From assembly GCF_035594765.1 (NCBI RefSeq), contig NC_085845.1, forward strand, positions 157,868,897-157,932,896: a DNA stretch of 64,000 bases. Reading direction: 5' to 3'. Source of the DNA: Anolis carolinensis. Lineage: Eukaryota. The position numbers were made by a program, and so were the translations under genes. The notes beneath the pieces were generated by a model that was not told the DNA's origin, made no database searches, and saw nothing but the letters and a program-made list of their open reading frames with translations. How positions within the stretch are numbered: position 1 is the first letter of the stretch; each line of letters opens with the position of its first letter. Positions 2,560-50,689 of the stretch are shown piece by piece.

Positions 2560-5412
2560 TCAGGAGAGGCAAGATGAGAGTACTGATCTTGCAAAGGCCG
2601 AGTCTTTAAGGGCCTTACTGTCCAGCCTGTAGTGAGAGACAAACGTGAGAGGGTTTGACCAGATAGCCGCTTTACATATGGAGTCAAGCGGAATACCCCT
2701 AAGGAAGGCGGTCGACGCCGAGAGGCTCCTAGTCGACCTCGGGCGGATGGAAGGAGGGGGAGGTCGCTTGGCTAGTTCATAGGCCAACTCAATGGCCTGA
2801 GCGATCCAGTGGGACAGTCTTTGGGAAGAGATGGGATTACCCAACTTGTCCTGGGCATAGGCGACAAAGAGTCTTTGTGACTTACGAATGTCCTTAGTAC
2901 GGTCCCTGTAGAAAAGAAGTGCTCTCCGAACGTCGAGAAGGTGCAGTTTTTGCTCGAGAGGAGAGGAGGGGTTAGAGAAGAAAGCTGGTAAGACAATGTC
3001 CTGGTTGAGGTGGAAGGCTGACACCACCTTAGGAAGAAAGGTAATGTCCGGGCGAAGAACAGCGCGGTCATGGTGGAAACGAAGATAAGGCTCGTCGACT
3101 CTGAGGGCAGCGAGCTCGGATGGCCGTCGTGCCGACGTGATCGCCACCAGAAAGGCCAACTTCCAGGAGAGCAGGCGTAGATCGGTCGAGGCAAGCGGTT
3201 CGAAGGGAGCAGAAGACAGTTGAGAAAGTACAAGTTCGAGGCTCCAGCCCGGCGTAGGTGGTAGCGACGGCGGGCAGATGTTATTGTAGCCCCGGAGAAA
3301 GGTTTTGATCAGGTGGTGAGAAAAAAGAGATGGCTGGCCGTGGCGCTGAAAAGACCAGGAAAGAGCTGCGAGATAAGCTTTTATAGAGGCAAGAGAAAGT
3401 TTCTTCTCGACGAGAGTCATGAGGAAGTCGAGGACCACCGATACCGAGGTCGGGAAGGTGTCGACGTTACGGGATCGAAGGAAGGCATGAAAGCGAGAGA
3501 GTTTGTAGGAATAAGCCTTGGTAGTAGACGGCTTATGGGCTGCCCGCAGGACGTCTTGCAGATTCTGCGGAAGAGAGGCTAGGTAAGAATCCTCCATGCA
3601 GTGAGATGAAGGGAAGAAAGGTCCGGGTGAAGAATTTTGCCGTCCTCCCGTGAGAGAAGGTGCGGCGAGAGAGGCAGAGGGTGAAACGATCCTCTGGAGA
3701 GGCGAAGAAGGGCTGGATACCACGGTTGGCGGGGCCAGGCCGGAGCTATGAGAATCGCCGTGACCGAGATTGAGAGAAGTTTTTCGAGAACTTTCGGTAT
3801 GAGGGGAATCGGTGGAAAAAGATAAAGCATCTCCGCCGACCAGTCCAGAAGAAAGGCATCCCCTAGGCAGCCGGGGAAAGAGTTCGGGGGGAGCCTCGCT
3901 CCGTAGCGGGGTAGCTGAGCGTTGTGGGGAGACGCGAAGAGATCCAGAGTAGGGCGCCCCCAGAGGCGGAACAGACCGTCGAGGACCTCGGGATTGAGCT
4001 TCCATTCGTGAGAGGAAGAAGTCATCCTGCTGAGGGCATCCGCTAAGCCGTTTTGGGCGCCCGGTAGGTGGATTGCAGAGATCTGTACGCCGTGGGCTAT
4101 GCACCAAATCCAGAGACGAGAGGAGAGGAGCATCAGTTTCCTCGAACCCGTACCACCCTGTTTGTTGATGTAGAATACTGCCACTAGATTGTCCGATTGA
4201 ATGAGGATGGACTTGTGGCGGATGAGGGGGGAGAATGCTTTTAGGGCTTTGAGAATGGCGAGAAGTTCGAGGAAGTTTATGTGGTTGGCCCTCTCTGACG
4301 GGGACCAAAGATTTTGAACCGTTAGACCGTTCATGTGGGCTCCCCAAGCGTAGGTGGAGGAGTCTGTGGTTATGGTTAGCGATGGCGGGGCTGGATGGAA
4401 AGGAAGGCCCTTGCACACGTTTTGGTGAGACATCCACCATGAGAGAGACTGGCGGACGGACGACGGTACCGACAGGTATCTGGAGTTGTGGTGGTGGAAC
4501 GGTTTGAAAGTGTCTATAAACCACCTTTGCAGGGTCCGAAGGCGCAGCCTGGCAAACGGGGTCGTGAGAACCGTGGAGGCCATGTGGCCTAGAAGGACCT
4601 GAATGACACGGGCTCTGACCCTCCGGGCAGATCGACAAAGGGCGATATGGTGGCGGAGAGCCAGGAATCTGTCGAACGGAAGTGACACAGTCTCTGCGAC
4701 GGAGTCGAAGAGGGCCCCGATGAACCGGATTCGGGTTGACGGGGAGAGATTTGACTTCTCGGAATTGAGTTGGAGGCCGAGAGATTTTAGAAGACGCAGC
4801 GTGAAAGAGACGTGATTTTGGAGAAGAACCGGGTCGGGCCCGACGAGAAGCCAGTCGTCCAGATAAGGAAAGACCGTGATGCCATGTAGCCTGAGGTGGG
4901 CCGCTACGGCGGCGACAACCTTGGTGAAGACCCTCGGGGCCGTGACGAGACCGAAGGGCAAAACGGTAAACTGGTAGGTTTGGTCGAGAACTTTGAAGCA
5001 TAGGAACCGTCTGTGCGCCTCTCGTATTGCCACGTGGAAGTAGGCGTCTCGTAAGTCTATGGAGGCAAAGTAGTCTCCCCGCTGCAGCATCGGGAGGATA
5101 GAGGCAATAGAGACCATCCTGAATTTGGAGGGGCGAATGAATATATTGAGTGCCCTTAAGTCCAGAATCGGGCGTAGCCCGCCTCCTCTTTTCGGGACTG
5201 TAAAGTATCTGGAGAAGAAACTTAAAGGGTCCAGTTCGGGAGGGGAGGGACGGATAGCGCCTTTGGCCAGTAGCGCTTCGACTTCGGCCAGTATCTCTGG
5301 GGAAGGGTTTGAGTGGAGAACGTGACCTGTAGGAGGGAGGTCCATGAACTCTAAGGCGTAGCCGTCTTGGACAATGCGGAGAACCCATGCATCTGAAGTA
5401 ATAGAGTCCCAT
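2560..5412 (-). CDS. DIRS ORF3: tyrosine recombinase (C-terminal third) with a long N-terminal region overlapping ORF2
   Basis: 950 aa; ITSARRPSELAAL (catalytic R), HLLDVRRAL, PRSTRS, AAIWS, FVSHYRLD (catalytic Y, codon 2629-2631). Confidence 0.92.
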   Translation of the reverse strand: MGLYYFRCMGSPHCPRRLRLRVHGPPSYRSRSPLKPFPRDTGRSRSATGQRRYPSLPSRTGPFKFLLQILYSPEKRRRATPDSGLKGTQYIHSPLQIQDGLYCLYPPDAAAGRLLCLHRLTRRLLPRGNTRGAQTVPMLQSSRPNLPVYRFALRSRHGPEGLHQGCRRRSGPPQATWHHGLSLSGRLASRRARPGSSPKSRLFHAASSKISRPPTQFREVKSLPVNPNPVHRGPLRLRRRDCVTSVRQIPGSPPPYRPLSICPEGQSPCHSGPSRPHGLHGSHDPVCQAAPSDPAKVVYRHFQTVPPPQLQIPVGTVVRPPVSLMVDVSPKRVQGPSFPSSPAIANHNHRLLHLRLGSPHERSNGSKSLVPVREGQPHKLPRTSRHSQSPKSILPPHPPQVHPHSIGQSSGSILHQQTGWYGFEETDAPLLSSLDLVHSPRRTDLCNPPTGRPKRLSGCPQQDDFFLSRMEAQSRGPRRSVPPLGAPYSGSLRVSPQRSATPLRSEAPPELFPRLPRGCLSSGLVGGDALSFSTDSPHTESSRKTSLNLGHGDSHSSGLAPPTVVSSPSSPLQRIVSPSASLAAPSLTGGRQNSSPGPFFPSSHCMEDSYLASLPQNLQDVLRAAHKPSTTKAYSYKLSRFHAFLRSRNVDTFPTSVSVVLDFLMTLVEKKLSLASIKAYLAALSWSFQRHGQPSLFSHHLIKTFLRGYNNICPPSLPPTPGWSLELVLSQLSSAPFEPLASTDLRLLSWKLAFLVAITSARRPSELAALRVDEPYLRFHHDRAVLRPDITFLPKVVSAFHLNQDIVLPAFFSNPSSPLEQKLHLLDVRRALLFYRDRTKDIRKSQRLFVAYAQDKLGNPISSQRLSHWIAQAIELAYELAKRPPPPSIRPRSTRSLSASTAFLRGIPLDSICKAAIWSNPLTFVSHYRLDSKALKDSAFARSVLSSCLS

Positions 5413-5816
5413 TGATTGTAGAAAGGGGCTAGTCGGTCTGCAAAGATACCGAAGGGACGAGGCAGCGTGGGCTCTACAACGGTAGCGGGCGAGGAGCTTT
5501 GGCAGGGGTTGGCGTCAGGTACGCCGATTAGGCTGCGGAGGAGCAGGGGTGGATCGACCGCGTTGCTTTTGCGGATGAGGTCCCCGGCGAGGTTGGTGAT
5601 GGGCTTGATTGTTCGAGCCCGAAGGCCGCCTGAAAGAATGGTGTCTGAAAGATTGCGGCGGGAAACGGCGGGAACGGTGCGGGAACCAGCGAGTGCGCTG
5701 AGGTTGAGGTTGGTCGCCACATTTAGACGCAAGAATTTTAAAGTCATGATTAGACTTGAGTTTGTCATCGGTACCGGCGTGAAACAGTCCGAGCGCGTCA
5801 AAGGGAAGGTCCTCAA
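3579..5816 (-). CDS. DIRS ORF2: reverse transcriptase + RNase H + Dam-like methyltransferase domain
   Basis: RPILDLR, IDLRDAYFH, LPFGL, YLDD (4854-4865), TDSS..WGAH, HINFLELLA, SDN, ADALSR, DLFAS..YLFPP. The track start is TTG; the first ATG is at 5768. Confidence 0.95.
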   Translation of the reverse strand: MRTFPLTRSDCFTPVPMTNSSLIMTLKFLRLNVATNLNLSALAGSRTVPAVSRRNLSDTILSGGLRARTIKPITNLAGDLIRKSNAVDPPLLLRSLIGVPDANPCQSSSPATVVEPTLPRPFGIFADRLAPFYNQWDSITSDAWVLRIVQDGYALEFMDLPPTGHVLHSNPSPEILAEVEALLAKGAIRPSPPELDPLSFFSRYFTVPKRGGGLRPILDLRALNIFIRPSKFRMVSIASILPMLQRGDYFASIDLRDAYFHVAIREAHRRFLCFKVLDQTYQFTVLPFGLVTAPRVFTKVVAAVAAHLRLHGITVFPYLDDWLLVGPDPVLLQNHVSFTLRLLKSLGLQLNSEKSNLSPSTRIRFIGALFDSVAETVSLPFDRFLALRHHIALCRSARRVRARVIQVLLGHMASTVLTTPFARLRLRTLQRWFIDTFKPFHHHNSRYLSVPSSVRQSLSWWMSHQNVCKGLPFHPAPPSLTITTDSSTYAWGAHMNGLTVQNLWSPSERANHINFLELLAILKALKAFSPLIRHKSILIQSDNLVAVFYINKQGGTGSRKLMLLSSRLWIWCIAHGVQISAIHLPGAQNGLADALSRMTSSSHEWKLNPEVLDGLFRLWGRPTLDLFASPHNAQLPRYGARLPPNSFPGCLGDAFLLDWSAEMLYLFPPIPLIPKVLEKLLSISVTAILIAPAWPRQPWYPALLRLSRGSFHPLPLSPHLLSREDGKILHPDLSSLHLTAWRILT

Positions 5817-7617
5817 TGACCTGTCTAGAAGATGAGGAGAGACCCGAAGACCTCAGCCAGGCGTGGCGGCGAATGGAAATCGCGTGGGCAATCATTTTAC
5901 CCGCAGTATCACCTGTATGCTTCGCCATTTGTTTTTGGTGGTGAGCGAGCGAGTCTGCCTCCTGTTGGAGGGTAGTGAGGACGGAGCGGTCTTCGTCCGA
6001 CATCTTAGCGAAGAAGGGCTGCGCCTTCTCCCAGATAATTTGTTGGTAGGCACCCATGCAGGCTCCATAATTCGCCATGCGGCAAAGCAAAAGGGCTCCG
6101 GAATAAAGTTTTCGACCCACGGCGTCGAAGCGCTTCCCCTCTCTGTCGGCCGGAGTATTCGACTGACGACCTGAGGATTGAGAGGCCTTAACGACCAGGG
6201 AGTTAGGGTCGGGATGGTGTTTGAGCCACTCCAGGGTATCATCGTCGGTACGGTACCAAGTCTCGATCCTCTTCGAGGTCGGAGGAATGGAGGAAGGGTT
6301 TTTCCAGGAGGCCTGGATAACGTCCAACAGATAAGGCAGAAAGGGGAGTAGCGTGGCCGGCGGAGCTTGGGCCTGCACCCTTTTGAAGACTGGGTCAGAC
6401 ACTGCTTTGGAGGTTTGCTTGATCTCCAAACCCAGGGCGTCGGCCATCCTGACCATTTGCTCAGCGAAAGCGCGAACATTGTCAGTAGGAGAAGGCGGGT
6501 CCGCCTCATACGCGTCGTGGGGAGGAGAGAGGTCGAGACCGAGAGAGACCACCGAGGCCGAGAGGACAGAGTCTGGGCGGTCGACATCAACATCTTCCTC
6601 CCCAGCCCCTTGGGGGGACTGAGGGGGAGAAGACAGCACAGTCTCGGGAGGAGGCAAGGCCTCGCGGGAAGAGAGGGCCGGAGGCCGAAGGTCCTTAGAG
6701 GCTGAGGCCTGGGCTGCCCGAGCCAGGCGAGCCGTTTGTCTGCCACGCTCCGGTGTCGAGGTGGGAGGGAAGAGCTGTTGGCGCGACGAGCGAGGCGGCG
6801 CAAGGGGCTCCGGCACCGGCACCCTGACCACCGTTTGGGTAGAGTGGTGGGGTGAGTCCTGCAGCTCCCCATCAGACAGGGGGTGCAATGGAGACTGAGA
6901 AACATCTCTAGGCCTCTGGGCTGGTACAATAGGAGAAGACCTTCTCGAGGAAGTTGTCGAGGAAGATGGCGGGTCTTTCTTTGAGGAGGCCGAGGAGGAG
7001 GAGCGCTGAGTTAGCCGTTTCTTCGCCGGCGGTTGCTTGGATGCAACCCTCAAGGACTTGCCAGGTGTGGGAGGAACCACAGCTGAGTCGGATTGCGCTC
7101 GACGAGACTCCTCGTGAGCCCTTTTAAAGGCTATTTTGATAGCAGAGGAGGACGGAGGGGAACCGATACGAGAGCGGATCGAGGTCACCGAAGCCAGAGA
7201 GCTCGACGTTGAGGAAGGTCCCACCTTTCCGGAGCGGGTCGACACGGTCGCCGTCGTCACAGTACACGGTGGTTTGACCGGTTTAGCGGCCCTGGAGGTC
7301 TTGGACGCTCTGGACGAGACCGAGGAAGCCTTGGCTGCCGGAGGCTTAGTTGGTGGTGCCGACATAGCTCTCAAAGCTGAGGACGCCGACGTACCCGACG
7401 TCGACGGAGTCGGTTCTGGCGCGAGAGATTTTTCGTAGAGCGCCGCTCTAAGCCTAGCGGCTCTGTTCTTTCTGGCCTGAGCCGTGAGAGCTAGGCAAAA
7501 ACGGCAGGTACTGACCACATGAGCCTCGCCAAGACAGAAGAGGCACTTGGCGTGGCCGTCCGAGTCAGGAATTTTAGCAGCACACTGCGTGCAACGCTTG
7601 AAACGAGTAGTAGACAT
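5515..7617 (-). CDS. DIRS ORF1: gag-like protein
   Basis: 700 aa; N-terminal CxxC..H..CxxC..H..CxxC zinc-finger-like motif, S/P-rich linker, helical C-terminal region with RRHAWLR and DLPFD. Confidence 0.88.
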   Translation of the reverse strand: MSTTRFKRCTQCAAKIPDSDGHAKCLFCLGEAHVVSTCRFCLALTAQARKNRAARLRAALYEKSLAPEPTPSTSGTSASSALRAMSAPPTKPPAAKASSVSSRASKTSRAAKPVKPPCTVTTATVSTRSGKVGPSSTSSSLASVTSIRSRIGSPPSSSAIKIAFKRAHEESRRAQSDSAVVPPTPGKSLRVASKQPPAKKRLTQRSSSSASSKKDPPSSSTTSSRRSSPIVPAQRPRDVSQSPLHPLSDGELQDSPHHSTQTVVRVPVPEPLAPPRSSRQQLFPPTSTPERGRQTARLARAAQASASKDLRPPALSSREALPPPETVLSSPPQSPQGAGEEDVDVDRPDSVLSASVVSLGLDLSPPHDAYEADPPSPTDNVRAFAEQMVRMADALGLEIKQTSKAVSDPVFKRVQAQAPPATLLPFLPYLLDVIQASWKNPSSIPPTSKRIETWYRTDDDTLEWLKHHPDPNSLVVKASQSSGRQSNTPADREGKRFDAVGRKLYSGALLLCRMANYGACMGAYQQIIWEKAQPFFAKMSDEDRSVLTTLQQEADSLAHHQKQMAKHTGDTAGKMIAHAISIRRHAWLRSSGLSSSSRQVIEDLPFDALGLFHAGTDDKLKSNHDFKILASKCGDQPQPQRTRWFPHRSRRFPPQSFRHHSFRRPSGSNNQAHHQPRRGPHPQKQRGRSTPAPPQPNRRT

Positions 7618-7653
7618 GCGAAGAGTCCGAAGTGAACCTTGCGGCGGAAAAAA

Positions 7654-7815
7654 AGGAACTGGAGAGCGGGCGCCTGGGGCTGCCTTATATGCCCCTTGGG
7701 AAGGGGGGCGTGGTTACCGCCAAAATTTGAACTTCAGCTTGGAAGAGTTTCCGTCGGAACCTGCGCAGGCGCAGCTTCTCCATTAGTGTGCATTCACAGA
7801 GTACACGAAGAAAAA
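7654..7815 (-). repeat. DIRS 5' (left) ITR
   Basis: Inverted copy of about 1791-1952; begins TTTTTCTTCG on the - strand. Confidence 0.95.
7657..7689 (-). promoter_or_regulatory. Putative TATA box + initiator in the 5' ITR (sense promoter)
   Basis: TATAAGG at 7689-7683; the A of CCAGTT at 7660 is 29 nt downstream; ORF1 ATG at 7617. Confidence 0.6.
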
Positions 7816-8092
7816 AGAGGTTACTCTAACCAGTAACAGCTGCAGAAAATTATTCTGTATATGTCTAAAATGAGTTGATTGAGCAACCATGTAGTAATTA
7901 TTTTTGTCACAAATGTTCTTTCTTCTTCCTGCTGATTGACCTTGTAATCATTTTTTTCCCACTTGTTCCACCTTTCTGCAATAGGCAAAAGATCTCATTA
8001 CATTTGGCAATGGTTTTGCATTTTTCTGGCTGAATCTACTCCAAATCAGCGATTTCAGACTCATTTACCTTTATGTACTAGGCCCCTTCAAA

Positions 8093-24959: not shown

Positions 24960-26922
24960 GTAAGTATCCCTATATATTCTTCCTAGATTACTGCAGTAAT
25001 ATCGTATACATTGGTTATCAACAATATAATTCCATGTTACAGTCATATTGGCTTCTTTTAATAAAAGGTGCTGTGTTTGCATATACACACTGTAATCTAA
25101 CACATTCTTTCTGGTTAGTAAAAGCAAGAGTGTGGGTGGATCCTAGTGAATATTTGAGGAGAGGGATGGACGCTTCCTGCTATTTCCCAGCAGCAGTTCT
25201 GTGTAGAAGTCATGGGTGAGTGATCTCAGCTGGGTGAATGTCTGTAATGTTGGCTTTGGACCGAGCAGGAAAGGGGCTATGAAATGTGCATGAAGATTAG
25301 AGACCCGGGAAGGGTTTTTTTTTCCTATTTGTATCCCTACTTCCCTACCTGACATTACATGGGCTGGAAAGAGAGTGTAGAAACTTGCTGTTTATAGCAT
25401 ATGGAGGTTGGAGTTGTGCAGGATGGGACATGATGGCATGGGGAATTAGGCAGCCATTTAATTCAATGGGCACATTAGAGGAAGAAATATTAGCCTTCAA
25501 GCATAACACTTGCCTACCAGGATAAATGCTTTTGCTATAGAACCCTGGTCTGTAGCACTTGATATTACAGATGTACTAATGGATCAGTCTTCTAGTAAAG
25601 TTGATTAGAGTTTGCTAGCAGAAAAGCCCTGGAAAAGTTAGAGAAGGAGGGAGGGGCGGGTGGAGCCTCATCATTCCAAATTCAAACCTCTTTCATCCAT
25701 GAGACACAGACCATATGCTGATGCAAGGGCAAAGGCTAAGATAAGTAATTGCCAGCATCTTTAATCTGAGAAGGTTTTGAATTCAGCACAGCTTCAATAT
25801 TGACTTACTTGTTCTTGCTTAACATGGTACTTAGCTAGATGGGAATATGCCTTGAGCCTTATTTATTACAGTGGGATTTATTTCTGAACATAAAAACATA
25901 TGAGATTGCACTCTTCATAATGACTGTAGGCTTTAATGCAAATTAGATTGCTATGGTTCTGAAAACTGCTTTTTTATAAAACTGAATTTTCTGACAATGG
26001 AAAATAATGTAAATTAATAGTAGACCCAGTGCTACTCCTGATAAGAACTGGGATGTCACCATACCTATGGTTTTCAGAAGCAGTGAAGATTTTCACAGGA
26101 AAAAAATCACAGAAGCTAAAGGTCACCAGCTAAAATCCCAAATAGACTGGCCGGCAAGACAGTGGAATTAGCGTAGTTGAGGGCAAGTGTGGAGAGAAAA
26201 AGAAAGCAGGATGGAATATCCTGCAAAAGCATGTGACTGATTGTCGACAACATTGAAAATGAGCACTCTATACTGCAATGTTTTGCATACTGTATGCTCC
26301 ACTTCTTTTGACTAATACCCTTCCAATACAAGTAGTTCAGGTAGTTATTTTATGCAGCACCAAAAATTAAATCCCACCAATCTAAATGAAACCTCTGAGT
26401 AAAGATACAAATAATTTCTCTAGTAATTTAAACATCGAAAGTACAAACTGTATATGTAAAAATCTTTGTTTTATTTTTGACATGCACTGGTTCCACATTT
26501 TTCAAAATATTACCCCAATGTTTGTTGATGAAGTGAATTGGTAGACCCAACTTTCTTTACAGATCTTGTTACTGCTTGTACACATATAATTTTGTAATAA
26601 CAAAAATTAGTTTCTCTGCTAATAATTCTGGTCTAGCAAGGATCAAATTTGGTTTTAACCCATATATCCTTTGGGGAAGTAGAAATTATGTGCAGAATAT
26701 CCAGTTACTAGACATACTTTCATCATGTACAAGGGGCTATGCAGGCAGTTGTCATGACACTTTCTTCCTAGCTGTGGAGCTTGACATAGCTACTCTCTCT
26801 CCTCCCTGACTTTATTGTGAAGAATCCTTCCTGATGCGAACACATCTAAAGAGAACCAGACTGGAAGAAACAGCTATGGATTGTTGTTTATGCTGTTGCT
26901 TATCAATCTCTTTTTTTTGCAG

Positions 26923-29486
26923 GCATACCTGTGAAATCTACAGAATCATCGGGGACAAAGCCTACCTTACTAAGTACTCAACTAGTAGACACAATAGAAA
27001 CATTTTCTCAAGTGCCTCCACAATTTGTTACTGAAGGGGTTGAACTAACATATATTAACCTGACTACCAAAACAACTGAAAAAGTAACGACTAAAGAGCA
27101 AATGCTTCTAGGTTTTTATTCAACAGCATCTCATGCAAGTACAGCTTTATCTGACAACTTCAGTACACCATCTGCTTTATTTGGATCTTCATCCCCATCA
27201 ACTCCCCCAACTAGTTCAAGAATCTCAACAACTAATGTTAAAACAACATCCTACAGTACAAGTCCCACTTTTGTTATACCATTGCCGTCTGAAACTACAG
27301 CTATGACACCATTGACAGCCTTTCTTCTAACAACCACATCCACAAAACCATTAGGATCCACAGCCACTTCTGCCACACTAGCTACATTAACTGTTGAACA
27401 AGGTTTTGCCTCTACTGAAATACCTAAAAGCACCTTAATGACCAGAAATCTTTCCACAAGTCCTTCCCAAGTGTCAATAGGTGTAGCAACACAATCCTTA
27501 TTAACTGAACAACAATCTCTTCCAAGCCCCATATTGTTTACACATTCACCATTAACACATGCATTTACTGTGACTTCAAAAAGTAAATCCTTTTTGTCTC
27601 CATCTCCCACAACTGTGTCTTCAGTTCCCTTTTTTACTTCTAGACCTACTGTTGCTACAAGATCTCTGCATAGTACCTCACCTTCATATGTAATGACAAT
27701 TCAACCTGATTTAAAGACAGAAACTGAAACACTTCTAACCCCTAAAGTTCTCTTAACTACAAAACATTTTTCTATAACTTCAGATATACATAGTGGAATA
27801 TCATCTTCAGTTGCTACTCAAAGACCTACAACAATACTATCTTCATTGGGTTTGAATGTCACACATGCAATGTCTACATTAGTGCGGCCTCCAATTACAT
27901 CTCTGAGCTCTAAAGCAACTGGGGAAGTTACCATTGCCTCAAAACGTTTTCATATAGAACCCTTCACAGATTCTCTTCCAAGTGTTCCTCAAGCTTCCAA
28001 ACCATTTTTGTCAAGTATAGTTTCAACAGAAAGTAAACCTGCACTCCATTCAGATTCATCTCCAGTGCCAATTACTTCTACAAGTACATCGGAATTTGTT
28101 GAGACCAGGACTTTGTCTAGTTATATTTCCATTTCACCTATAAAAAGGCCATATGATATATTACAAACAACTTCCACAGCCAGTATGGATATGCTTGTCC
28201 CAAACACAGAATTAAAAACTTCATCTTTAGTTCACAGTGTAGGTACATTTACTGCTTCTGCAGAGTTTCCAGGAACGTCATCTTTTACAAGCCCATTGGT
28301 TTCATTCCCAGTGTTAACACAGTCTTCTGTTCCCCAGATCTCTGTTTCAGCACCTCATTCTGAACGTTCATCAGTAATTCCCCAAACTGGTACCACTCCT
28401 GGTCTGATACCAACTATCACTCCAATACAGATGCCAGTGGTATCACTTGGTGATAAAACTACCTCAAGAAGCCCAGATTCATATCTTGCAGCATTGCCTT
28501 CAGCGGATCCTTTGTTGGCATCAAGTGTGGATGTTTCCACAATACATGCTACATCTTTAACTCCTTTGAAGGTCTCAGAAGTAGTTATGCCATCTTGGGT
28601 AGCTACAAGTTTGATGACTACTCCAATGGATCATAGAACATTGACTTCATTACAAAGTACATTCAGTACTCAGTTTGCAGAGCCAGCAAAACAGCCAGCA
28701 TTTACGGTGGGTGCACTTTCAAATATTACATCAATTCTGGAGGCTGTTACTGAAAAGTATTCACTTAGCCCCTCAGTTAGTTTACTGCTTTCATCTGTGG
28801 GCACAATAGAGCCTCCCAAAGATCCACAAGTTACAGAATTCTCTTCTGCCAGTTTCAAAGTTCACACAGATGCTGCATCAGTCCCAATTCCTGCTACCTT
28901 TCAAACAACTATATATGTTCCAAATATTACCTTGATTACATCCAGACCTTCCGCAGAAGCCTTCAGAACAACGCCCATTAAAATAGAAGTAGTAACTACC
29001 TCAGGCGGGGTAGAACCGAGTATGACAGAGACCTCTGAACTTCAAAATGCAACTTCTGCTGCAGAAACTATTCATGCTCTAGCACGTAACCAAACCTCAA
29101 AAATACAGGCAAGTGCAAGCACAGAAGAACCATCACCACTCCCAATTCAGGTGACTCCATCTATAGGTGAAGGCAGCACAGTGCCTGTGAAAACAGTCTC
29201 TCTCTCAGATGTGACAGATATAACTGTATCTGATTGGTCTCCACCAAAATCAGTTCCTCCACCAAAATCAGTTAGACCTTACTACAGTGTAACTGAACCA
29301 CAGCAAAAAAGGATTACCAGCATACCAAATGTCACAATAACAGATTCATCACACTCTTCTGCAGTGTCTCTGGGAACACAACCATCACAGGTGGAAATGG
29401 GAGTAATGACAACAGAAAGTGCAGAATTTGCTTCCTTTGGCACAATGGTTCATTCCTTTATGTCTGCAACATATCCAGAATGCACG
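26923..29486 (+). CDS. OTOGL: OTOGL 2564-nt Ser/Thr/Pro-rich (mucin-like) exon
   Basis: ttttgcag|GC ATA CCT...GAA TGC ACG|gtgag; open throughout; phase 1-0 fits both neighbours. Confidence 0.88.
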
Positions 29487-30076
29487 GTGAGAGCAGATTT
29501 GCCTACTTATCTGTTTTGCTGTTTATTCTAATTAGTATTTTAATTTTATTCTGGTCTTTTTTCCTCTTTGCATTTTTTACTTCTTGAAATGTCTCTGTCT
29601 TTATACACATTCTGCAGTTCTGTTGCTTCAGTGGCCAGTTCTTTCCAAATAATTCCTGCATATCTGCACTCTTTACTTTGTTTAGTTATAATCCTCACTG
29701 AGACAAACTATGTTATTTATTATTATTTTTATTAAGGTTATTTGCTTGCACTTCAATCATATTATCTATAACAGGTTTACTAGCACATCCAGTAATCAAA
29801 ATGTATTTATTTATTTGCCAAATTTGTACCCTGCCCTTCTCAACCCGGAGGGGGACTCAGAGCAGCCTCACATATCGGCAACAATTCAATGCCTTAAAAT
29901 AACATACAATTGGTAAACATCTACATTAAAACCAGAGAATTAAAACATCTAAAAACCGTTACATCAATTATTAAAATCACACAATCCATTTGAAGTAATG
30001 ATGAAACTGTGCTCAAAAAAATAAAATAATGATTTTAATGACACCAGCTTTTCTCTTTCTCTTTGCCATGGAACAG

Positions 30077-44768: not shown

Positions 44769-44809
44769 ATTGTGACTGTGAAAATTTTACTGTACCAGCT
44801 TGCAAAGTG
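44769..44809 (+). CDS. OTOGL: OTOGL 41-nt exon
   Basis: CDCENFTVPACKV; phase 1-0. Confidence 0.88.
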
Positions 44810-44994
44810 GTAAGAAATGTTTGGTTTGGTTATTACTAAATTATATCCTTGCTTTTTTATTTTGCAGTTTTTTTGAGGCTGCATTTAATGTTAGATATGT
44901 GATTGTGTCATCGGATTATGCAGAATAAGTGATTGTGCACTCCCTCAAACCTAGACAGGATATATAAACAATGCATACACAACCTTTAATGCCT

Positions 44995-45895
44995 ACGAAA
45001 ATACGAGGCCGCTGACGCGGCCGCCTCGGGCGCTGGCCGCTAGGGGCGATGTCGAGGCGTCGACAGCGGCCCGTAGCGCCACCGACGCCTCCGGTGTTGG
45101 CGCGGCCGCGCGGGGCTTCAATCCCCGCGCCCGCGCCAAACCGCTGAAAACAGTATGCCATTTTGCCCTTAGTTGACAAACTAAGGGCAAAATGGCATAT
45201 CTGTGCTGTGCGCATGCGCACAGCACAGATAGGCCAGTTGGCCCTTACTTCCTGGTCGCGGCCGCCGATCGCCCGGGCGATCGGCGGCCGCGACCAGGAA
45301 GTAAGGGCCAAATGGGCTATCTGTGCTGTGCGCATGCGCACTGCCAGATAGGCCATTTTGCCCTTAGTCGACAAACTAAGGGCAAAATGGCCTACCTGGC
45401 AGTGCGCATGCGCACAGCACAGATAGCCCATTTGGCCCTTACTTCCTGGTCACGGCCGCCGATCGCCCAGCGGCCGCGACCAGGAAGTAAGGGCCAAATG
45501 GGCTATCTGTGCTGTGCGCATGCGCACAGCCAGATAGGCCATTTTGCCCTTAGTTTGTAGACTAAGGGCAAAATGGCCTATCTGTGCTGTGGGCGATCGG
45601 CGGCCGCGACCAGGAAGTAAGGGCAAAAAGGCCTATCTGGCTGTGCGCATGCGCACAGCACAGATAGGCCATTTTGCCCTTACTTCCTGGTCGCGGCCAG
45701 GGCACGCTGGACGGGGGGCGGGGCCAACTCTGGCCCCGCCCCCAGCACTATTCGCCCTGGCCCCGCCTCCCACGCAGCATGGGAGGCGGGGCCATTGCAT
45801 GCTGGGCGGGGCCAGGGCGTGGGAGGCGGGGCCGGTGGCGGGGGCGCTTTTTAGCACCCCCGCTTAACATTTAAAAATATCTCCGGCCGGCCCTG
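44995..45895. mobile_element. GC/CpG-rich insertion containing a nested palindrome array; hAT-like right end
   Basis: Ends GGCCGGCCCTG, the reverse complement of the CAGGGCCGGCC hAT end at 8660; no left TIR or TSD found. Confidence 0.6.
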
Positions 45896-46166
45896 TTTGA
45901 TATTGTTGTAGTTTGCTTATCTTGGCCAAAATACATCAGGGGATATCTGTTGATGAAACCACTTCCATCAGCAAACGTGTGTGTCGGGAGGATCATCCCT
46001 GTCTATTCACCCCCAAACCCCCAGGAGCTGCTTTCATTTGTACTAGTATGTGTCTTTGGCCTTTAGAGTTGGTTAAGCATTTTTCTTTTGGGTGAAATTA
46101 CAGTTTTGTGCTTATATAGGATTGGACATACTGCACATAATGCTAAAATATTTTTAAATGTTGCAG

Positions 46167-46230
46167 GGAGAAATTCAGAAAATAGATTCTAATGTTTCTG
46201 GCATGTGTGGATGCCCTCAGTACATTTGTG
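46167..46230 (+). CDS. OTOGL: OTOGL exon
   Basis: GEIQKIDSNVSGMCGCPQYIC. Confidence 0.88.
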
Positions 46231-46833: not shown

Positions 46834-47012
46834 AAAAGGACAATGTCTGTGTATTCCAAGAAGTAACCATTCTGAGCCCTGGTCAAGCCATGATTCAATA
46901 TTTGGATGGAGATCTTTGTTACACGGCAAAATGTTCACAGGAGAAAGATCCCAGCACAGGATTTCATGCTCTGGATCTGATAGTAGTAAACTGCTCCCAA
47001 AAATGTGAAGAT
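46834..47012 (+). CDS. OTOGL: OTOGL exon
   Basis: KDNVCVFQEVTILSPGQAMI..NCSQKCED. Confidence 0.93.
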
Positions 47013-49002: not shown

Positions 49003-50689
49003 CTAGCTGTGCCCGGCCATGCGTTGCTGTGGCTTAGTCTGGTGGTGTTGGTCAATCTACATTAGGTTGTATTTATGCTGTGACCTCCACCCTTCTTTAT
49101 ACTCACATTAGCAGTAGTATTTGAAGTCTGTTACCTTCTTCAATTTTTGTGTTGATTGATAATTGCTTGAGATCCCTGTTGTCTTTGGTTTGTTGTTAAT
49201 TGTGATGTCTGATTCTGCTGAGTGCGGTTTACATCTTATTGTGGTACAATAGTCTTTTTTTTTTGTTTTGCCTGTGTAGGTGTTTATTATTGTTGTTGTT
49301 GTAGTGGTCATGAAGGCTGGATAAGTTAGATGCTACTGTATTGTTTTTTGGAGGCCCAGTGTAGCACTGACTGGCCTCTCAGCCTCAGTGCCTGGCTGCT
49401 TCTTGCCTGTGATGGTGTAGATTCTTATTGTTGTTGTTGTCATTGCTATTATTGTAATGGTTTTTTTGGAGGCCAAGTGTGAATGTAGGGATTGGGGAGG
49501 TGGATGAGCACTGAATGGCCTTGTAGACTCAGTGCATGGCTGATTCTTGCCTGTGTAGATGTTTATTATTAGTGGGTGAGTGGATGGATAGATGAGTGGA
49601 TGGATAGATAGAGTGGGTGCTCTCCTTGTTTCCTTTATTCCTATGCTGTTCCTTTTCTCTGCTCCGATCCTGAGCTCGCTGATAAGAACACACTGGTCAG
49701 AAAGGAGGGTAAATATAACCGGATCAATGGTCTTTCTCTCCCTTTTGCTCTTGGCCTTCCGGGCAGAGAGGGAGGGCTCTTGTACTTGGCGTTCCTTCGC
49801 TTCCCTTCCCTCCCTCCTTCCTTCGTTCTATCCGTCCCAGCCTTTCCTGCCTGCGGAGCCATGGAACTGGGTCAATGGGTTGGATGGCGAGGAAAGGGAA
49901 AAGGAAGAGGCCTCTAATTGAAATGCATGGACTCCATGCCATGGGGTGCTAGGATTTGTAGTTTGCATCCAGTCCAACCCCTTTCTTTCTTTTTGTCATG
50001 GAGGAAGAACCCACCCAAACCCCTCAGACAGATGGCCATCCGGTTTAGTTGTGTTGTTATAGTCACAATGCGTTGTTGTGAGTTTTTTGGGTCCAAATTG
50101 TGGTTTTGTGGTGTGGTTGTGTTGTTACAACCGGAAGGGAAGGCTTTTGTGTTGTGTTGCCAAGTTTCGTATTTCTGGGGCGTTTAATTGTGTTGTTATA
50201 GTCACGATGCGTTGTTGTGAGTTTTCTGGGTCCGGATTGTGGTTTTGTGGTGTGGTTGTGTTGTTACAACCGGGAGGCAAGGCTTTTGCATTGTGTTGTC
50301 AAGTTTTGTATTTCTGGGGCGTTTAGTTGTGTGCCAAGTTTCATATTTCTGGGGCGTTTAGTTGTGTTGTTATAGTCACGATGCGTTGTTGTGAGTTTTG
50401 TGGGTCCAGTGTGGCTTTGTGGTGTGATTGTGTTGTTACAACCGGGAGGGAAGGCTTTTGCGTTGTGTTGCCAAGTTTTGTATTTCTAGGGTGTTTAGTT
50501 GTGTTGTTATAGTCATGCTGTGTTGTTGTGAGTTTTGTGGGTCTGGATTGTGCTTTTGTGGTGTGGTTGTGTTGTTGTAACCGGGAGGCAAGGCTTTTGC
50601 ATTGTGTTGCCAAGTTTCGTATTTCTGGGATGTTTAGTTTTGTTGTTATAGTCACTGCGCCCGCAACTTTATCCTTTTATATATATAGA
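49003..50689 (-). mobile_element. Non-autonomous Helitron
   Basis: On the - strand it starts TC-TATATATATAAAA and ends with the hairpin GCCACAGCAACGCATGGC plus CGGGCACAGCTAG before a T; no TSD. Confidence 0.8.
50044..50655. repeat. GT-rich minisatellite of about 139 bp inside the Helitron
   Basis: Unit starts at 50044, 50183, 50357, 50494 and 50633. Confidence 0.9.

What the first reader, a model, noticed from the sequence alone, without database searches (positions are those of the whole stretch)
45154..45850. Nested palindrome array dense in NRF1, ETS, YY1 and Sp motifs: a portable CpG-island promoter-like cassette
Seen: three self-complementary modules. A is CCATTTTGCCCTTAGT..ACTAAGGGCAAAATGG; B is the 34-bp perfect palindrome TATCTGTGCTGTGCGCATGCGCACAGCACAGATA (45198-45231); C is a 74-bp perfect palindrome (45238-45311). 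They run A-B-C-B-A-B-C'-B-A..., so the array is palindromic at several scales. TGCGCATGCGCA occurs five times (45209, 45329, 45403, 45515, 45644), CAGGAAGT and CAAAATGGC recur, and GC boxes cluster at about 45712-45845 before a hAT-like end. Known: these match NRF1, ETS/GABP, YY1 and Sp/KLF consensus sites, the usual set at CpG-island promoters. Inference: fold-back or template-switch amplification inside a DNA transposon built a bidirectional promoter- or enhancer-like, cruciform-prone element in an OTOGL intron. Its transcript would be largely double-stranded.
Basis: partly seen in the sequence, partly recalled or inferred. Interest (0 to 1): 0.7.

Follow-up and report, generated by a model that had tools for sequence, protein, structure and literature searches.

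The report
Lizard transposon's self-rearranging promoter-like array
This hairpin array is the variable middle of a young jumping-DNA copy in a green anole gene intron; full-length relatives carry the same array in front of their transposase gene, where it likely serves as the promoter, while this damaged copy, missing from other anoles' sequence data, is likely a silenced passenger.

Summary
The palindromes and motifs are real. They are the interior of an 895-bp non-autonomous hAT element (45001-45895) in an OTOGL intron. The family has at least 245 copies; 126 of 129 examined have 8-bp target duplications, and they show 107 different module orders. This copy has lost its left terminus, and 3 of 4 DNA runs show the site empty. 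New here: the likely parent, a 6.8-7.5-kb Tip-like hAT with an 869-aa transposase, carries the same array at its 5' end. A sister family keeps the YY1/NRF1 cores but changes the spacers, so a transposase-promoter role is plausible; ETS and GC boxes are not kept. CpG transitions run 4-7 times the background, implying methylation rather than a protected island. This copy equals a longer relative minus five blocks. Three copies carry their own flank inside, so rearrangement happens in place. The scan has noted similar arrays in other anole hAT families, but none like this sequence. No activity was measured.

The parts
45001..45895 (+). Non-autonomous hAT (Tip-like) element, 895 bp, left terminus missing
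   Evidence: Family matches span query 52-946; flanks of other copies; empty allele joins 45001 to 45896 with 48 other letters
45001..45153 (+). Left end without its first 15 bp (TIR lost); shared with the transposase-bearing element
   Evidence: 1 mismatch in 153 to the closest copy
45157..45196 (.). Module A1: YY1-like arms around a short asymmetric loop
45198..45231 (.). Module B1: perfect 34-bp palindrome centred on the NRF1-like 12-mer
45238..45311 (.). Module C1: perfect 74-bp palindrome with ETS-like CAGGAAGT on each arm
45316..45577 (.). Modules B2, A2 (45352-45391), B3, shortened C2 (45437-45492), B4, A3 (45538-45577)
45578..45700 (.). B/C fusion left by a 140-bp deletion, module B5 (45632-45666) and the half C that ends most arrays
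45701..45895 (+). Right end with seven GC boxes and the right TIR; outside the TIR it does not align to the right end of the three transposase-bearing copies checked
   Evidence: 245 exact matches to its last 25 bp
45896..45903 (+). Likely surviving copy of the 8-bp target duplication; no partner copy in 44801-45001
   Evidence: inference from 126 of 129 relatives
44769..44809 (+). OTOGL exon upstream of the host intron (44810-46166)
   Evidence: Splice signals; translation
46167..46230 (+). OTOGL exon downstream of the host intron
   Evidence: the next exon (46839-47012) matches Otogelin-like proteins

Best explanation
The array is the variable interior of a young non-autonomous hAT transposon, inherited from the 5' end of a transposase-bearing relative where it likely acts as the promoter region, and in this intron it is likely a methylated, immobile passenger. 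Shown: family, target duplications, the same array in front of the transposase gene, the lost left terminus, the empty allele, the CpG decay. Inferred mechanism: (1) one YY1-NRF1-YY1 hairpin (a'-B-a) is old in this lineage; (2) because B and its neighbours A and C are self-complementary, a DNA strand being made folds back or switches template at their centres and writes inverted copies, giving the order left end-(A or C, B)n-half C-right end; A is likely a C with a collapsed tip; (3) slippage between direct copies then adds or removes whole modules, and this copy lost five blocks; (4) some events likely happen at the insertion site during or soon after integration; (5) a roughly 72-bp deletion removed the left TIR, one target copy and 48 bp of intron, so this copy would no longer jump.
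For: TIRs and 8-bp TSDs in 126 of 129 copies, 107 module orders, 1479 of 1659 module junctions are regular B-A or B-C joins. Partner: 6.8-7.5 kb, same TIR, TSD, copies 98-99% alike; DUF4371 plus hAT dimer domains; 21 matches at 94% or more, 15 in a 759-aa open frame. 21 of 30 loci had the anchor, all 21 with left TIR and array modules; 20 of these 21 have a transposase match downstream on the same strand (places). Footprint: 22 of 24 motif positions against 8 of 26 spacer positions invariant over 5 sequences of 3 lineages (p 1e-5, or 0.004 with mirrored arms halved). Last B intact in 20 of 20 long copies, inner B in 62 of 79. A loops face opposite ways around B in 122 of 158 cases. Window copy matches L021 at 884 of 895 letters with five block gaps; 21 other copies over 1300 bp reach at most 856. 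Internal termini carrying 10, 13 and 32 letters of their own flank in 3 of 129 copies. CpG columns hit by transitions: 25 of 29 against 27 of 96 in right ends, 34 of 54 against 12 of 60 in left ends of this copy's type; C modules 52/4812 against 9/5492. Empty allele in 3 of 4 runs of different studies.
Against: No transcript start, chromatin or reporter data. The footprint rests on three related lineages, was anchored on the motif, and self-copying palindromes can keep their centres without selection. The array lies about 3.1 kb upstream of the start codon, so a non-coding first exon has to be assumed. An older subfamily has CGAAATGG in place of CAAAATGG in its hairpin, and more distant relatives have neither motif in their 5' ends. 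Common B variants break the NRF1 core (139 of 413 inner modules in short copies). Copies share ancestry, so counts are not independent. The CpG test is indirect, is not significant in the youngest subfamily (6 of 49 against 3 of 63, p 0.18) nor with singletons only (p 0.34), and says nothing on this copy's own methylation. Long copies' C modules decay too (7/814 against 1/969), so most are probably silenced as well.
Confidence: 0.62

Rival explanations
1. The motifs are incidental. The array is only a self-amplifying hairpin structure; the NRF1-like core persists because it is the fold-back centre that gets copied from arm to arm.
For: Shared variants often change both arms together (50 mirrored against 83 one-arm positions in 24 shared B types, some inflated by indels). 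ETS is not kept in older relatives. Core-breaking B variants spread to many copies. Distant relatives do without the motifs.
Against: The YY1-like arms are far from the fold-back centre and are still kept while the spacers between change. Further non-hairpin GCGCATG-type and CAAAATGG motifs follow the array in long copies. The position is just inside the 5' end, in the sense of the transposase.
Confidence: 0.25
2. One reading: a portable CpG-island promoter or enhancer acting on OTOGL or making bidirectional transcripts at this site.
For: 44990-45900 has GC 0.63 and CpG o/e 0.89. NRF1, ETS, YY1 and Sp1 are among the commonest promoter motifs (PMC3820735, passages). The GCCAT YY1 core (PMC11602158, passages) is present.
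Against: Recent insertion with an empty allele in 3 of 4 runs. CpG richness is shared with another young element in the window (3000-8000, o/e 0.93). Family-wide CpG decay; NRF1 occupancy depends on DNA methylation in mouse ES cells (PMC7605266, passages). The site is a mid-gene intron, not a host gene start.
Confidence: 0.06
3. The repeats are subterminal binding sites for the element's own transposase rather than for host factors.
For: hAT elements commonly use short subterminal repeats (own knowledge). The array is within 170 bp of the left TIR and is kept in non-autonomous copies.
Against: The core is found in the last 190 bp of only 3 of 129 copies and not in the printed right end of the autonomous copy. 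4 of 129 copies have no intact core, though they may have lost it after insertion.
Confidence: 0.08
4. On timing only: all array changes are ordinary replication errors at hairpins, spread over time and unrelated to transposition, like small inverted triplications.
For: Inverted triplications of about 150 bp arise from replication errors and are removed by slippage over their hairpins (PMC13334657, abstract). Tandem runs of identical blocks occur (L160, L147; L213).
Against: In the 3 of 129 copies where the copied tract crosses a terminus it stops 2, 5 and 24 letters beyond the target duplication, close to where repair synthesis of an integration gap would begin. n is small.
Confidence: 0.45
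5. Assembly artefact.
For: No listed contig spans the filled allele; three runs show only the empty site.
Against: The same modules are in contigs of all 4 DNA runs and in 129 copies with distinct flanks; the window's order is a clean subset of another copy.
Confidence: 0.03

Closest known systems
hAT Tip group, e.g. Drosophila BuT2 (PMC3942097; passages)
   Same: Short TIRs, 8-bp TSD, transposase with DUF4371 plus the hAT dimerisation domain, MITE-like derivatives.
   Different: Longer element (6.8-7.5 kb) and protein (869 aa against 643); variable palindrome array at the 5' end. Tree placement in Tip was not tested.
Anole hAT families of Novick et al. 2010 (PMC3014272; parts 2 and 3 of 6 read, plus a term search)
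   Same: Same host, young non-autonomous hATs, 8-bp TSD, chimeric ends and fast structural change as in hobo_AC.
   Different: No family in its Table 1 has the TIR CAGGGCCGG; the nearest, orphan hAT-N6 to N8, have CAGAGSCGGYCC. The text holds neither 'palindrom' nor 'promoter'. Repbase and Dfam could not be checked and may hold this family.
Mouse L1 Tf 5' UTR monomer arrays (PMC11602158; passages)
   Same: Variable number of YY1-bearing units at the 5' end of an autonomous element; the closest functional model.
   Different: L1 is a retrotransposon with head-to-tail monomers and proven promoter activity; here units are self-complementary, alternate in direction, carry NRF1-like cores, and activity is untested.
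Xenopus Xstir repeats in the Xmix MITE (seen only as cited in the review PMC9659126; passages)
   Same: A repeat array riding inside a non-autonomous vertebrate DNA transposon.
   Different: Other transposon group; no link to a transposase promoter in the passages seen.
Tol2 internal inverted repeats (bioRxiv 10.64898/2026.01.12.699174; passages)
   Same: An autonomous vertebrate hAT with a long internal hairpin.
   Different: One fixed 302/303-bp pair from an inserted Angel MITE, described there as unique to Tol2 among hATs; here the array is copy-specific and has homologues in sister families.
ProtoRAG regulation by YY1 (PMC7481187; abstract)
   Same: A DNA transposon whose ends carry a YY1 element affecting transposase transcription.
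   Different: Other superfamily; single element in the TIR region, no array.

Membership tests
hAT superfamily | 8-bp target site duplication | tested here: met
   126 of 129 family copies, at most 1 mismatch; three long copies. The window copy has none; the empty allele points to a deletion.
hAT superfamily | Short terminal inverted repeats | tested here: met
   CAGGGCCGG at both ends of relatives; only the right one survives in the window.
hAT superfamily | Partner transposase with hAT dimerisation domain | tested here: met
   PF05699 above cut-off; D377, D447, C475, H478, E812 invariant over 12 homologues (their catalytic labels are recalled).
hAT superfamily | The partner mobilises the short copies | not testable with these tools
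   Left end and TIR shared; right end differs outside the TIR.
Tip group of hAT | DUF4371 plus hATC architecture as in BuT2 | tested here: met
Tip group of hAT | Falls in the Tip clade of a transposase tree | not tested
   No named Tip, Ac or Buster reference proteins were fetched.
MITE | Short, non-coding, TIRs, many copies | tested here: met
   895 bp; 245 exact right-end matches.
MITE | Uniform size, AT-rich interior | tested here: not met
   269-3033 bp, median 957; GC 0.63.
hAT-N6/N7/N8_AC | TIR CAGAGSCGGYCC | tested here: not met
   Table 1.
CpG-island promoter | Over 500 bp, high GC, high CpG o/e (thresholds recalled) | tested here: met
   911 bp, GC 0.634, o/e 0.89.
CpG-island promoter | Protected from germline methylation | tested here: not met
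   Indirect and family-wide: CpG transitions 4-7 times other G/C transitions; this copy's own state unknown.
CpG-island promoter | Lies at a transcription start and drives transcription | not testable with these tools
   Mid-gene intron for OTOGL; 5' position in the transposase-bearing element; contigs cannot show starts.

The most novel reading that the evidence does not exclude
A recently active vertebrate hAT carries a self-rewriting promoter: a variable-number array of self-complementary NRF1/YY1 modules, the DNA-transposon counterpart of mouse L1 monomers, which is re-dealt at each jump when repair synthesis at the target gap runs into the hairpins and folds back. Each new copy would then get its own dose and order of sites, letting transposase expression be tuned copy by copy.
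Probability: 0.15. Interest if true: 0.75.

Novelty: new variant of a known kind. Interest (0 to 1): 0.43.

Why it matters
If right, it ties a hypervariable palindrome array to the likely promoter of a young anole hAT family with about 15 copies in a full open frame, not in the 2010 anole catalogue. It offers a natural series of over a hundred promoter-dose variants and three dated in-place rearrangements, which make two questions testable: how DNA transposons build and replace promoters, and whether integration repair itself rewrites the element. For OTOGL it probably matters little.

Tried and rejected
RNA: no RNA holder listed. Four runs guessed to be RNA were laid on a long copy: contigs cover the transposase region, one runs unspliced through the coding intron, nested repeats swamped the joint table, and no joint from the array to the coding exons was among those shown; no conclusion drawn. 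ESM Atlas gave no answer for the exon. Genome-wide patterns for further internal inverted termini returned only the two known cases plus six hits read as ordinary flanks. Two of four internal TIR-like hits were point changes in the GC-box region. A parent with this copy's right end was not found among 13 transposase loci checked. Mirror copying after insertion is rare: 4 of 95 rare changes in C modules. The CpG control from long-copy interiors was noisy (2.3-fold) and is not relied on. The first tokeniser was too strict and was replaced; alignment had wrong coordinates and was redone. A checkpoint note says 22 of 30 long loci; the call shows 21. Thirteen right ends without a left end in the fetched DNA (including this copy, several with too little flank) are outside the 129. 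Not in print, as far as searched: searches showed no paper on this family; Repbase, Dfam and subscription journals were not searchable, and no supplements were read (those of PMC3014272 and PMC7561263 may list the family).

Full report
Observation. The stated palindromes and motif positions are exact, far beyond chance as sequence, and the stretch folds almost wholly on itself as RNA. But they are copies of three modules, so they count as one event repeated.

What it is. A search of the own genome found 215 matches among 40 scored of 2338 candidates, sharing the limits 45001 and 45895. Other copies begin and end with CAGGGCCGG and are flanked by 8-bp duplications. The last 25 bp occur exactly 245 times. 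Of 129 copies with both ends in the DNA fetched, 126 have the duplication; lengths run from 269 to 3033 bp, and there are 107 different module orders. The window copy lacks the first 15 bp and has no duplication. In 3 of 4 DNA runs, from different studies, one contig crosses the site without the element and with 48 other letters; in the fourth the flanking contigs stop at the same two places. I infer a recent insertion that is not fixed, followed or accompanied by a deletion of about 72 bp. The host gene is OTOGL-like. The host is the green anole by the name given to the partner protein. Polymorphic hAT insertions are common in this species (PMC7561263, passages).

The partner. Three left ends without a nearby right end led to 6.8-7.5-kb elements with the same TIR, 8-bp duplications and 98-99% identity. 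Their two coding exons give 869 aa, matching P0001, with DUF4371 and the hAT dimer domain, as in BuT2 of the Tip group (PMC3942097, passages). Of 49 matches to a 200-aa piece, 21 are at 94% or more and 15 of those lie in a 759-aa open frame. In 21 of 30 loci holding the sequence that follows the array, the array or its modules sit between the left TIR and that sequence; the other nine are truncated, more diverged or older. The window-type copy is thus the partner's left end and array joined to a different, GC-box-rich right end. No family with this TIR is in Table 1 of Novick et al. (PMC3014272, parts 2-3 read).

How the array changes. B alternates with A or C in 1479 of 1659 junctions; 170 are irregular and 10 lack B. 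Because all three modules are self-complementary, any such string is a nested palindrome. The asymmetric A loop records direction: around B it is inverted in 122 of 158 cases, and around BCB in 19 of 34, so both inversion and direct duplication have acted. Older copies show intermediates between C and A, so A is likely a collapsed C. The window copy equals L021 minus blocks of 120, 112, 149, 75 and 140 bp, with 884 of 895 letters matching; 21 other long copies reach at most 856 and a flipped-array control 822. The extra modules of L021 recur in the same order in other copies, so loss is the simpler direction. Three copies hold an inner copy of a whole terminus together with 10, 13 or 32 letters of their own flank, target duplication included (two inverted, one direct). 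These events happened at the insertion site. That they stop so close to the duplication suggests, on three cases, a link to repair of the integration gap. Ordinary replication errors can make similar structures (PMC13334657, abstract).

Do the motifs mean anything? A sister family, 90% alike in the transposase gene, has a 5' end that hardly aligns, yet keeps a single hairpin with the AAATGG arms and the TGCGCATGCG core around different spacers. Over five sequences of three lineages, 22 of 24 motif positions and 8 of 26 spacer positions are invariant. The B nearest the transposase is intact in 20 of 20 long copies, against 62 of 79 inner ones (copies are related). Against: ETS is not kept, one older subfamily alters the YY1-like arm, more distant relatives have GC-box or other GC-rich repeats instead, and a self-copying palindrome can preserve itself. 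NRF1 and YY1 are common promoter motifs (PMC3820735, passages), and YY1-bearing monomer arrays drive mouse L1 (PMC11602158, passages). I put a promoter role for the transposase at about even to slightly better odds; nothing was measured. The NRF1 and ETS consensus forms used are recalled; the YY1 core is.

Is it a CpG island here? By composition yes, but so is another young element in the window. Transitions at CpG are 4.4 times the other G/C transitions in right ends, 4.8 times in left ends of this copy's type and 6.6 times in C modules, which is what germline methylation produces (own knowledge). The youngest subfamily and a singleton-only count were not significant. NRF1 occupancy is limited by methylation (PMC7605266, passages). 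A working enhancer or promoter for OTOGL is therefore unlikely.

Earlier notes of this scan describe hairpin arrays and promoter-like blocks in other anole hAT families; they are unchecked and not used as support. None matched this sequence.

Verdict. Real, and a new variant of a known kind: a damaged, unfixed, non-autonomous copy of a young Tip-like hAT whose 5' region is a hypervariable palindrome array. Interest 0.43; 0.75 if the array proves to be a promoter rewritten at each jump.

Noticed in passing
L192 (G000:C3, about 110.035-110.040 Mb, minus) and L195 (G000:C2, about 283.137-283.144 Mb, minus): Two older, broken transposase-bearing elements (5.3 and 7.4 kb, each with an 8-bp duplication, about 72-78% aa to P0001) start with CAGAGGCGGTCC, the TIR given for the orphan hAT-N6 to N8 families; a candidate for their missing parent.
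   Followed up: partly
L197:2470-2720: The 5' region of another older relative carries GC-box repeats about 73% alike to those in the window's right end; 5' regulatory regions seem to be swapped between families.
   Followed up: partly
window 2560-7713, minus strand: Young CpG-rich retroelement with three long overlapping open frames: reverse transcriptase (PF00078) and a weak integrase SAM-like hit; DIRS-like by recall.
   Followed up: partly
window 26850-29531: An 893-aa Ser/Thr/Pro-rich open frame, likely one large mucin-like OTOGL exon; mammalian OTOGL is recalled as lacking such a region, not checked.
   Followed up: no
window 45298, 45484, 45614: Each C arm gives GAAGTAAGG on the OTOGL sense strand, a possible weak splice donor inside hairpins.
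   Followed up: no
L091-L092 (G000:C2:24.098-24.118 Mb): Three left ends with short arrays repeat at about 6.47-kb spacing, a tandem duplication that includes retroelement fragments.
   Followed up: no
L094 and L100: Copies with the family's left end and a short array followed by a different GC-rich tandem repeat of up to 2.6 kb and a diverged right end.
   Followed up: no
G000:C2, about 17.88-18.01 Mb; P0005: A cluster of four 65-69% relatives with long open frames; P0005 carries PF01352 (KRAB by recall) beside the transposase domains, a possible domesticated fusion.
   Followed up: no
window 50043-50655: Complex tandem repeat with periods 35, 139 and 172 bp, G/T-skewed.
   Followed up: no
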